A DNA stretch of 64,000 bases, taken from Eledone cirrhosa. Taxonomy: Eukaryota. The stretch covers positions 68,634,001 through 68,698,000 of the forward strand of contig OZ024745.1 of the NCBI GenBank assembly GCA_964016885.1. The letters are read 5' to 3'. Each line of letters starts with the position of its first letter. The first letter of the stretch is position 1. The notes beneath the pieces were generated by a model that worked only from the letters and a program-made list of their open reading frames with translations, was not told the origin of the DNA and made no database searches. Shown here piece by piece: positions 21,088-21,328 of this stretch. The translations under genes and the position numbers were made by a program.

Positions 21088-21322
21088 TATATAAAGAATG
21101 AATAATAACAGGTAGACATCATAAAAAGGTAATTTATTCCGTGTGCTTACAAGTGTTTCCACGGTGGTACTGCAGCCTAGTTATGCTACGTGCAAATTCA
21201 CAAGTACTTGCAGAACTCAAATATCCAATGCTGTGACCACTGTTTCCTCAGAGCAGGAAACACTTGTAAGCACACGGAATAAATTACCTTTTTATGATGT
21301 CTACCTGTTATTATTCATTCTT

Positions 21323-21328
<6 letters not shown>
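21088..21328. mobile_element. Head-to-head inverted pair of 5'-truncated retroelement ends (Penelope pseudo-LTR-like)
   Basis: Perfect ~73-bp inverted arms (21088-21160 / 21256-21328). Each reads GAAACACTTGTA...AATAAA...tail, pointing outward into TA sequence. Confidence 0.6.
21144..21255 (-). ncRNA. Type I hammerhead ribozyme with intact core, long stem II and minimal stem III
   Basis: Minus strand: UGCU, CUGAGGA, a-ACAGUGGU...ACCACCGU-g, GAAA, CACUU, GUA, AGCA. Stem I UGCU/AGCA is perfect, and AATAAA follows 9 nt after the predicted cleavage site. Confidence 0.7.

What the first reader, a model, noticed from the sequence alone, without database searches (positions are those of the whole stretch)
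21088..21328. Best-preserved ribozyme: intact hammerhead core with a ~85-nt stem II inside a perfect inverted repeat
The minus strand folds as UGCU/AGCA stem I, CUGAGGA, a long stem II (ACAGUGGU/ACCACCGU, then CAGC/GCUG), GAAA, a minimal stem III and a GUA site, followed by AATAAA. The element is truncated exactly at the 5' strand of stem I. There it joins an inverted copy that starts at GGAAAC. Identical arms suggest a recent event. The pair closing stem II is an A-G mismatch, which may reduce activity.
Basis: partly seen in the sequence, partly recalled or inferred. Interest (0 to 1): 0.75.

Follow-up and report, generated by a model that had tools for sequence, protein, structure and literature searches.

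The report
Long-armed hammerhead in Penelope retrotransposon end
This is a short, head-to-head piece of a recently active Penelope-type jumping gene, a known layout, whose predicted self-cutting RNA has one arm three to eight times longer than in its relatives and is likely jammed in this copy by the inverted piece next to it.

Summary
A type I hammerhead motif lies at 21144-21255 (minus strand), with an 85-nt stem II region, between perfect 73-bp arms. It is no stand-alone ribozyme: 20947-21328 is a 5'-truncated, two-armed insertion of a young Hydra-clade Penelope-like element (3.18-kb unit, ~785-codon RT/GIY-YIG frame, at least 1115 motif copies) in a (TA)n tract. Inverted arms and pLTR hammerheads are published PLE features. 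The copy is typical, not best preserved, and its inverted arm is predicted to sequester the catalytic half. The A-G pair is family-wide.

Unusual: the stem II region is 81-99 nt in this family, its sister family and two single-locus relatives, against 10-25 nt in 61 of 62 hits from Hydra-like elements elsewhere. The two fixed 3' ends lie ~140-170 nt apart (published tail 30-40), and 73 of 76 two-armed insertions pair one short with one long end, as expected if both DNA ends prime reverse transcription. Covariation within the family was not significant; cleavage is untested; no RNA run was listed. This scan noted long-stem-II Hydra hammerheads before on other DNA.

The parts
20947..21328 (.). 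Whole two-armed insertion (about 382 bp) of a Hydra-clade Penelope-like element, flanked by (TA)n on both sides
   Evidence: ends uncertain by a few bases because they merge with the TA repeat
20947..21256 (-). Direct arm: 5'-truncated 3' end of the element, from the foot of stem I to the 'long' fixed end (201 nt after the predicted cut)
   Evidence: 98-100% identical to the 40 best genomic matches; unit positions 2869-3177
21256..21328 (+). Inverted arm: second 5'-truncated copy, from the GGAAAC half of the core to the 'short' fixed end (55-60 nt after the predicted cut)
   Evidence: 73 bp, exact complement of 21088-21160; unit positions 2965-3036
21144..21255 (-). Type I hammerhead motif: stem I 4 bp, CUGAGGA, long stem II, GAAA, 3-bp near-palindromic stem III, GUA; predicted cut between 21148 and 21147
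   Evidence: activity untested
21160..21244 (-). 85-nt stem II region: A-G at the base, 8-position helix with one A-C mismatch, a further 4-bp helix, weakly defined distal part
   Evidence: the distal fold is no more stable than shuffles (z -0.3)
20947..21087 (-). Tail: about 141 nt between the short and the long fixed ends, present on one arm only
20895..20946 (.). (TA)n target tract, left flank
21329..21360 (.). (TA)n target tract, right flank

Best explanation
The feature is a short head-to-head insertion of the 3' end of a young Hydra-clade Penelope-like retrotransposon into a TA repeat, likely made when both ends of the cut DNA each primed a copy of the element's RNA, and it carries the family's hammerhead motif, predicted to self-cleave in intact copies but predicted to be blocked here by the inverted arm. 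Steps: (1, shown) the full 3.18-kb unit encodes an RT plus C-terminal GIY-YIG protein with the Hydra motifs, and the hammerhead lies in its pLTR about 250 nt before the start codon. (2, shown) Copies end at one of two fixed sites about 55-60 and about 200 nt after the predicted cut, and two-armed insertions nearly always carry one of each. (3, inferred, by analogy with the Anolis Poseidon element that starts reverse transcription at two internal RNA sites and extends both DNA strands in vitro) the enzyme nicks both strands of (TA)n, each 3' end primes at one site, and the two truncated copies are joined with little or no overlap. (4, inferred) Many copies stop just upstream of stem I because the RNA template starts there or the enzyme stalls there. 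(5, inferred) The template is mostly uncut RNA, so the ribozyme is slow, dimer- or protein-dependent, and not needed for insertion. (6, inferred) The long stem II is a lineage-specific insert at the one place a hammerhead tolerates one, with its basal helix kept by selection.
For: Dispersed young family: 2161 first-look candidates, the best 40 at 98-100%; 1115 exact motif matches against 0 control. Tandem copies run on into a 785-codon frame with RWK, DKT, RT motifs, a CxCx5C linker, GIY-YIG, CxxC and CxH, the Hydra features listed by Craig et al. 2021 (PMC8557442 section 11); 839 homologues at E<=0.001, the best at 32-42% identity; 19 of the 24 best genomic matches have no stop. Ends: 73 of 76 distinct two-armed insertions are short+long; 17 of 18 and 5 of 6 in the two samples not chosen for the long end; 7 of 8 clean cases in a sister family, whose eighth long arm ends outside TA. 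Ribozyme: homologous position and intact core in 51 of 78 Hydra-like loci from metagenomes; the core is kept while position 7, the cut triplet and stem II differ between families; the true pairing of stem II strands ranks 1 of 120 among five families. Uncut template: 1 of 240 arms and 0 of 100 listed copies (read by eye) start at the cut site. Mechanism: Frangieh et al. 2024 (PMC11167929, parts 1-2 of 4).
Against: No cleavage or RNA data. Covariation inside the family did not beat the shuffle control (score 0.072; 205 of 500 shuffles as high; 2 pairs with two-sided change). Folding favours other structures even in intact copies (hammerhead fold 3-6 kcal/mol above the minimum in short contexts, 12 in a wider one), though compact relatives also score low (about 3 kcal/mol). 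The distal stem II is not significantly structured in three of four families tested (z -0.3, -0.7, -1.8; only one at -6.5). Pfam and PDB searches did not recognise the protein; the clade call rests on motifs and on sequences read in the paper's supplement, not on a tree. Families with long stem II were found with patterns that fix the core, so core conservation among them is partly built in. About half of the sampled insertions have one arm only (20 clusters in 40 regions). Three two-armed insertions break the rule.
Confidence: 0.8

Rival explanations
1. The inverted arm is made by fold-back or template switching during one round of copying (self-priming, possibly on an antisense RNA, as proposed for rotifer Penelope elements), and the two ends come from endonuclease cuts in the intermediate, not from two priming sites.
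For: Arkhipova et al. 2013 (PMC3846280, passages) read palindromes at inverted junctions as self-priming; Craig et al. ascribe the tail to endonuclease resolution (passage). Several junctions here are near-palindromic, with both arms starting at unit 2860-2870 (L008, L021, L029, L108, L117).
Against: Arms of one insertion often start at unrelated places hundreds of bases apart and either arm can carry the long end. The in vitro work ties the tail to two initiation sites. Genomic end counts alone cannot separate the two models.
Confidence: 0.25
2. The hammerhead of the youngest subfamilies is decaying or vestigial: the long insert and the A-G and A-C mismatches have silenced it, and it is carried along because the pLTR is needed as DNA (promoter) or as a protein-binding RNA.
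For: The basal stem II has lost pairs from the older to the younger subfamilies (A-U to U-G to A-G at the base; G-U/A-U to A-C). Almost no copies start at the cut site. Ribozyme mutants did not affect insertion by the Anolis element, and Naiads thrive without hammerheads.
Against: All catalytic positions, stem I with its extension and stem III never or hardly vary over 20 copies from several subfamilies and in the sister family, whose protein is 43-64% identical. A non-standard pair at the base of stem II is common in Hydra hammerheads (U-U in 14 of 26 rows of File S2, read by eye), and a second repeat family here has the same A-G with a compact stem.
Confidence: 0.2
3. A non-autonomous retrozyme or a host hairpin gene (miRNA-like or MITE-like inverted repeat), not a PLE fragment.
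For: No coding sequence in the window (no tblastn hit); perfect terminal arms; earlier scan note e1-10346800 describes a retrozyme family with a similar ribozyme.
Against: The same 310 nt are the 3' end and pLTR of ORF-bearing copies; arm lengths vary from copy to copy while outer ends are fixed; no tandem monomers.
Confidence: 0.03
4. Chance resemblance to a hammerhead.
For: Rfam does not score it; within-family covariation is not significant.
Against: Controls of 0 matches; same place as in all Hydra elements; true pairing of stem II strands best of 120.
Confidence: 0.02

Closest known systems
Hydra clade of C-terminal EN+ Penelope-like elements (Craig et al. 2021, PMC8557442; passages, section 11, supplement parts 1-2 and hits for Hydra-1_Obim seen)
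   Same: Single RT + GIY-YIG frame with RWK, DKT, CxCx5C, CxxC and CxH; (TA)n targets; partial tandems; inverted 5'-truncated copy; hammerhead near the 3' end with near-palindromic stem III.
   Different: Another family than Hydra-1_Obim (different protein and a compact ribozyme); unit 3.18 kb against 'generally <3 kb'; stem II region 85 nt against at most about 26 nt in the 26 Hydra rows of File S2; tail about 140 nt against the 30-40 bp given for PLEs.
[quoted passage not shown]
   Same: Type I, short stem I, weak palindromic stem III, found in pLTRs and in pairs on opposite strands 100-700 bp apart; low activity, dimers needed.
   Different: Those have helix II of 6-8 bp with a conserved G10.1-C11.1 pair; here an A-G pair and an 85-nt insert.
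Poseidon element PAc of Anolis (Frangieh et al. 2024, PMC11167929; parts 1-2 of 4 read)
   Same: Two reverse transcription start sites that define the tail; both DNA strands cut and extended; AT-rich target; protein-assisted hammerhead not needed for insertion.
   Different: Other clade; its sites lie inside the ORF and lack homology to the target, whereas here both ends lie upstream of the ORF, are ~140 nt apart and show 2-5 bases of TA-like overlap with the target.
PLE-X1 of Selaginella (Craig et al. 2021, File S2)
   Same: PLE hammerheads with an enlarged stem II (loop 29-35 nt), marked as deviating.
   Different: EN-minus plant elements in 28S rDNA; insert at most about 55 nt against 81-99 here.
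Non-LTR retrozymes (Cervera and de la Pena 2020, PMC7229834, passages; Li et al. 2026, 10.64898/2026.07.22.740005, part 1 of 5)
   Same: Type I hammerheads related to PLE pLTRs.
   Different: Retrozymes are non-coding tandem monomers; this is a truncated end of an autonomous element.

Membership tests
Hydra-clade PLE | Single ORF with RT and C-terminal GIY-YIG endonuclease | tested here: met
   785-codon frame with RT motifs and a YQC...YIG endonuclease core read directly; homologues carry PF26215 and one PF01541; Pfam did not score this protein itself
Hydra-clade PLE | RWK motif and DKT in place of DKG | tested here: met
   VRWKAF and ADKTS; definition
Hydra-clade PLE | CxCX5C linker; CxxC and CxH round the conserved E and N; no CCHH | tested here: met
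   CNCHLPERC, CRLC and CNH; absence of CCHH judged by eye
Hydra-clade PLE | Insertion into (TA)n | tested here: met
Hydra-clade PLE | pLTR partial tandems and inverted 5'-truncated copies with a one-sided tail | tested here: met
   the tail is longer than published
Hydra-clade PLE | Grouping with Hydra in an RT tree | not tested
   no tree with named reference elements was built; reference sequences were only seen in the supplement
Hydra-clade PLE | Canonical (compact) hammerhead near the 3' end | tested here: inconclusive
   position and core met; stem II size not canonical (85 nt against 10-25 nt)
Type I hammerhead ribozyme | CUGANGA, GAAA and NUH core between three helices, stem I open | tested here: met
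Type I hammerhead ribozyme | Standard pair at 10.1-11.1 | tested here: not met
   A-G in this copy and the youngest subfamilies; A-U, U-G, U-A in 14 of 20 aligned copies; U-U is tolerated in nature (PMC3088659 passage), A-G not shown to be
Type I hammerhead ribozyme | Helices supported by covariation | tested here: inconclusive
   not significant inside the family; true pairing best of 120 among five families
Type I hammerhead ribozyme | Match to an Rfam hammerhead model | tested here: not met
   no hammerhead family at E 10 on 20945-21330; RF00163 does match compact motifs elsewhere in the genome (18 matches)
Type I hammerhead ribozyme | Stem I - loop II tertiary contact | not tested
   no such contact was looked for systematically
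Type I hammerhead ribozyme | Site-specific self-cleavage | not testable with these tools
   needs an in vitro assay or raw RNA reads
Non-LTR retrozyme | Non-coding tandem monomers with one ribozyme each | tested here: not met
   the repeat unit is 3.18 kb and coding

The most novel reading that the evidence does not exclude
This lineage of Hydra elements starts its RNA at the first base of the ribozyme and inserts by double-ended priming from two fixed sites 140-170 nt apart, one per DNA end, which would explain the inverted arm and one-sided tail of Penelope elements; the 80-100-nt stem II is a selected module (promoter DNA or a platform for the element's protein) that gates cleavage, defining a class of hammerheads that standard searches miss in thousands of copies.
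Probability: 0.3. Interest if true: 0.7.

Novelty: new variant of a known kind. Interest (0 to 1): 0.4.

Why it matters
The locus itself is one of more than a thousand ordinary fragments. The family matters in two ways. First, hammerheads with an 80-100-nt stem II escape Rfam and descriptor searches, so ribozyme counts in such genomes are too low. Second, the family is young, has intact frames, and its two ends are far enough apart (140 nt) to be told at a glance; the near-strict short+long pairing makes the open question of how Penelope elements form inverted arms and tails directly testable in vitro and in the genome.

Tried and rejected
Rfam on the whole window (150 of 293 rows shown, all low-complexity miRNA-type matches below cut-off but one sRNA) and on the element: no hammerhead. 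Repeat finder swamped by TA tracts. Pfam and PDB sequence search: no informative hit. First pair count used a mis-registered stem II and is discarded (redone). Covariation inside the family: not significant. Sequencing runs: no RNA holder listed; laying two runs kept as contigs of unknown kind showed presence only, no ends or splice joints; no evidence on expression either way. Cleaved-RNA templates: no pile-up of 5' ends at the cut site. Cap signature at the 5' hot spot (lead from note e1-10353012): G precedes 3 of 4 arms that start at unit 2866 and 3 of 6 at 2865, but several of these G's are templated by the partner arm: inconclusive. An intron inside the long stem II: considered from the D. 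virilis case, no support, not testable without RNA. One 97-nt hit among the metagenome loci (L228) proved to be a compact ribozyme mis-paired by my descriptor; a relaxed look at 17 of the 27 negative loci found three more ribozymes, all compact. Tail length in other Hydra-like elements: scattered ends near +30-47 and +95-122 suggest tails of about 60-70 nt, but almost never in one family, so not counted as evidence. Paper searches for a published long-stem-II case: searches found none beyond PLE-X1; the library lacks most subscription journals, and Repbase and Dfam could not be checked. Supplements of the bioRxiv preprint and of PMC11167929 were not seen.

Full report
1. Observation. The arms 21088-21160 and 21256-21328 are 73 bp and exactly complementary. 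On the minus strand, 21144-21255 reads as a type I hammerhead: UGCU/AGCA stem I, CUGAGGA, an 85-nt stem II region, GAAA, a three-pair near-palindromic stem III and GUA, with the predicted cut between 21148 and 21147. It is the only hit of my descriptor in the window; the descriptor hit 0 of 78 shuffled and 1 of 78 antisense control loci. Rfam does not find it even at E 10, although its Hammerhead_1 model matches 18 compact motifs elsewhere in the genome.

2. What it belongs to. The stretch 20950-21260 has 2161 first-look candidates in the 3.0-Gb animal genome; the 40 scored are 98-100% identical and many have an inverted partial copy beside them. A tight pattern for the motif gives 1115 matches against 0 for the control. 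In four of the first 30 loci the sequence runs on into a reading frame. Larger stretches show a 3.18-kb unit in partial tandems with a frame of about 785 codons. The protein has RT motifs, RWK, DKT, a CxCx5C linker, a C-terminal GIY-YIG core, CxxC and CxH, the features by which Craig et al. 2021 define the Hydra clade of Penelope-like elements, along with (TA)n targets and a 3' hammerhead (PMC8557442 section 11). It has 839 homologues at E<=0.001, the listed ones 32-42% identical. Of the 24 best genomic matches 19 have no stop, so the family is likely still able to move. It is not the published Hydra-1_Obim, whose protein differs and whose ribozyme is compact. The window itself holds no coding part.

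3. The inverted repeat. An inverted 5'-truncated copy next to the element, with a tail at one end only, is the published PLE layout (passages of PMC8557442; PMC3846280; PMC8969392). Here copies end at two fixed places, 55-60 and about 200 nt after the predicted cut. The window's insertion spans about 20947-21328: the direct arm has the long end, the inverted arm the short one, they share one base, and TA tracts lie on both sides. Among 76 distinct two-armed insertions with both ends at a fixed site, 73 pair one short with one long end, 2 are long-long and 1 short-short. Part of that set was fetched with a query that includes the long end; in the two samples free of that bias the counts are 17 of 18 and 5 of 6, against at most one half by chance. 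In a sister family (protein 43-64% identical in the pieces matched) 7 of 8 inverted pairs are cleanly short+long with a tail of about 170 nt, and the eighth has a long arm ending outside TA. About half of the sampled insertions have one arm only (20 clusters in 40 regions, 15 with the short end). Frangieh et al. 2024 showed in vitro that a Poseidon element cuts and extends both DNA strands and starts reverse transcription at two internal RNA sites that bound the tail (PMC11167929 parts 1-2). The simplest reading is that each DNA end primes at one site and the two truncated copies are joined. This step is inferred; fold-back priming remains a rival.

4. The 5' break. An RNA start there, where the sequence fits an initiator-like motif (recalled consensus) and where a four-pair extension of stem I begins, or a stall at the ribozyme's foot would both explain it. 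A cap signature was inconclusive. Only 1 of 240 arms and 0 of 100 listed copies (read by eye) start at the cut site, so cut RNA is rarely the template, as found for the Anolis element.

5. The ribozyme. The long stem II is a lineage trait. It is 85 nt in the young subfamilies, 90-93 in older ones, 81-83 in the sister family and 90 and 99 in two further single loci. In 78 Hydra-like loci from metagenomes 51 had a sense-strand hammerhead; 61 of 62 hits had 10-25 nt between the core halves and the other proved compact. The 26 Hydra rows of the published table are all compact (at most about 26 nt); two spike-moss PLE-X elements have loops of 29-35 nt. Evidence that the basal helix is selected is mixed. 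In 20 copies from several subfamilies 91.8% of cells pair and two positions show two-sided changes, but the covariation score does not exceed the shuffle control (205 of 500). Across five more distant families the true matching of 5' and 3' strands has the lowest summed energy of 120 matchings (two of the five are single loci). The distal part is not more stable than shuffles in three of four families. The A-G pair at the base of stem II is shared by the youngest subfamilies (821 matches to a pattern that needs purine-G there, most of those listed from this family); older ones have A-U, U-G or U-A. U-U at this place occurs in 14 of 26 published Hydra rows (by eye) and is known to be tolerated (PMC3088659 passage). 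Another repeat family in this genome has a compact hammerhead with the same A-G.

6. This copy. With both arms the transcript folds into a 73-bp hairpin (-137.0 kcal/mol against -102.9 with the hammerhead enforced) that takes up GAAA, stem III and the cut site. Intact copies also prefer other folds by 3-6 kcal/mol in short contexts, compact relatives by about 3, as expected for motifs with a weak stem III that are reported to work poorly except as dimers (PMC4209133 part 2). So the copy is typical in sequence (99.4% to its closest fetched relatives) and likely inactive.

7. Comparison and novelty. Element class, ribozyme in the pLTR, TA targeting and inverted arm are known. Not found in six paper searches: Hydra hammerheads with an 80-100-nt stem II, tails of 140-170 nt, and a count of short+long pairing; the library is incomplete and repeat databases were not available. 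The scan's own notes already report long-stem-II Hydra hammerheads and two-ended insertions on other DNA, in this genome and others; they are unchecked AI notes and were read after my analysis of the family. No note overlaps this place or sequence.

8. Verdict. A real hammerhead motif in an ordinary truncated insertion of a known class of retroelement, with two unusual family traits: new variant of a known kind, interest 0.4. Cleavage, expression and the priming mechanism are untested; no RNA run was listed.

Noticed in passing
L109-L112 (e.g. G000:C1:153926500-153931000): Another repeat family with a compact type I hammerhead whose core reads CCGAAGA (U4C), stem II closed by A-G and a fully palindromic stem III; inverted pairs in (TA)n with two fixed ends about 160 nt apart; only a faint match to one Hydra-like protein.
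   Followed up: partly
L156-L205 (e.g. L190, G000:C1:220408700-220414200): Older sister family with an 81-83-nt stem II, GUC cut site and ~170-nt tail; most of the 100 listed of 1015 pattern matches. Its distal stem II shows GAUCG/CGAUC and GUUCG/CGAAC variants.
   Followed up: partly
L194:1143-1254 (-) and L196:4054-4174 (+): Two further single loci with 90- and 99-nt stem II regions of unrelated sequence; L196 has a 12-bp basal helix (z -6.5).
   Followed up: partly
L206-L283 (metagenome loci): A small GCUC/GAGC hairpin 30-60 nt after the ribozyme in most compact Hydra-like elements: motif in 40 of 48 against 41 of 390 random stretches; just behind the short end. The window's family has ACUC and GAGU there, but the pairing is ambiguous.
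   Followed up: partly
window 20420-20570, 20800-20895, 21355-21400, 19560-19860: The islands between the TA tracts around the finding are pieces of other dispersed repeats that also occur in the fetched loci (8, 3, 13 and 162 matches); the tract looks like a repeated insertion site.
   Followed up: no
window 21810-21865 (+): A palindromic GAAAC-TACGTA-GTC stretch preceded by a CUGUGAUG-like word, possibly a decayed hammerhead of another element; no match among fetched loci.
   Followed up: no
window 1-6231: Satellite array of a 40-bp unit, at least 155 copies, 93% matches, running off the window start.
   Followed up: no
L113 (G000:C1:52920000-52929999): An older-subfamily fragment with its flanks repeated in tandem at a period of about 5.49 kb, a local duplication.
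   Followed up: no
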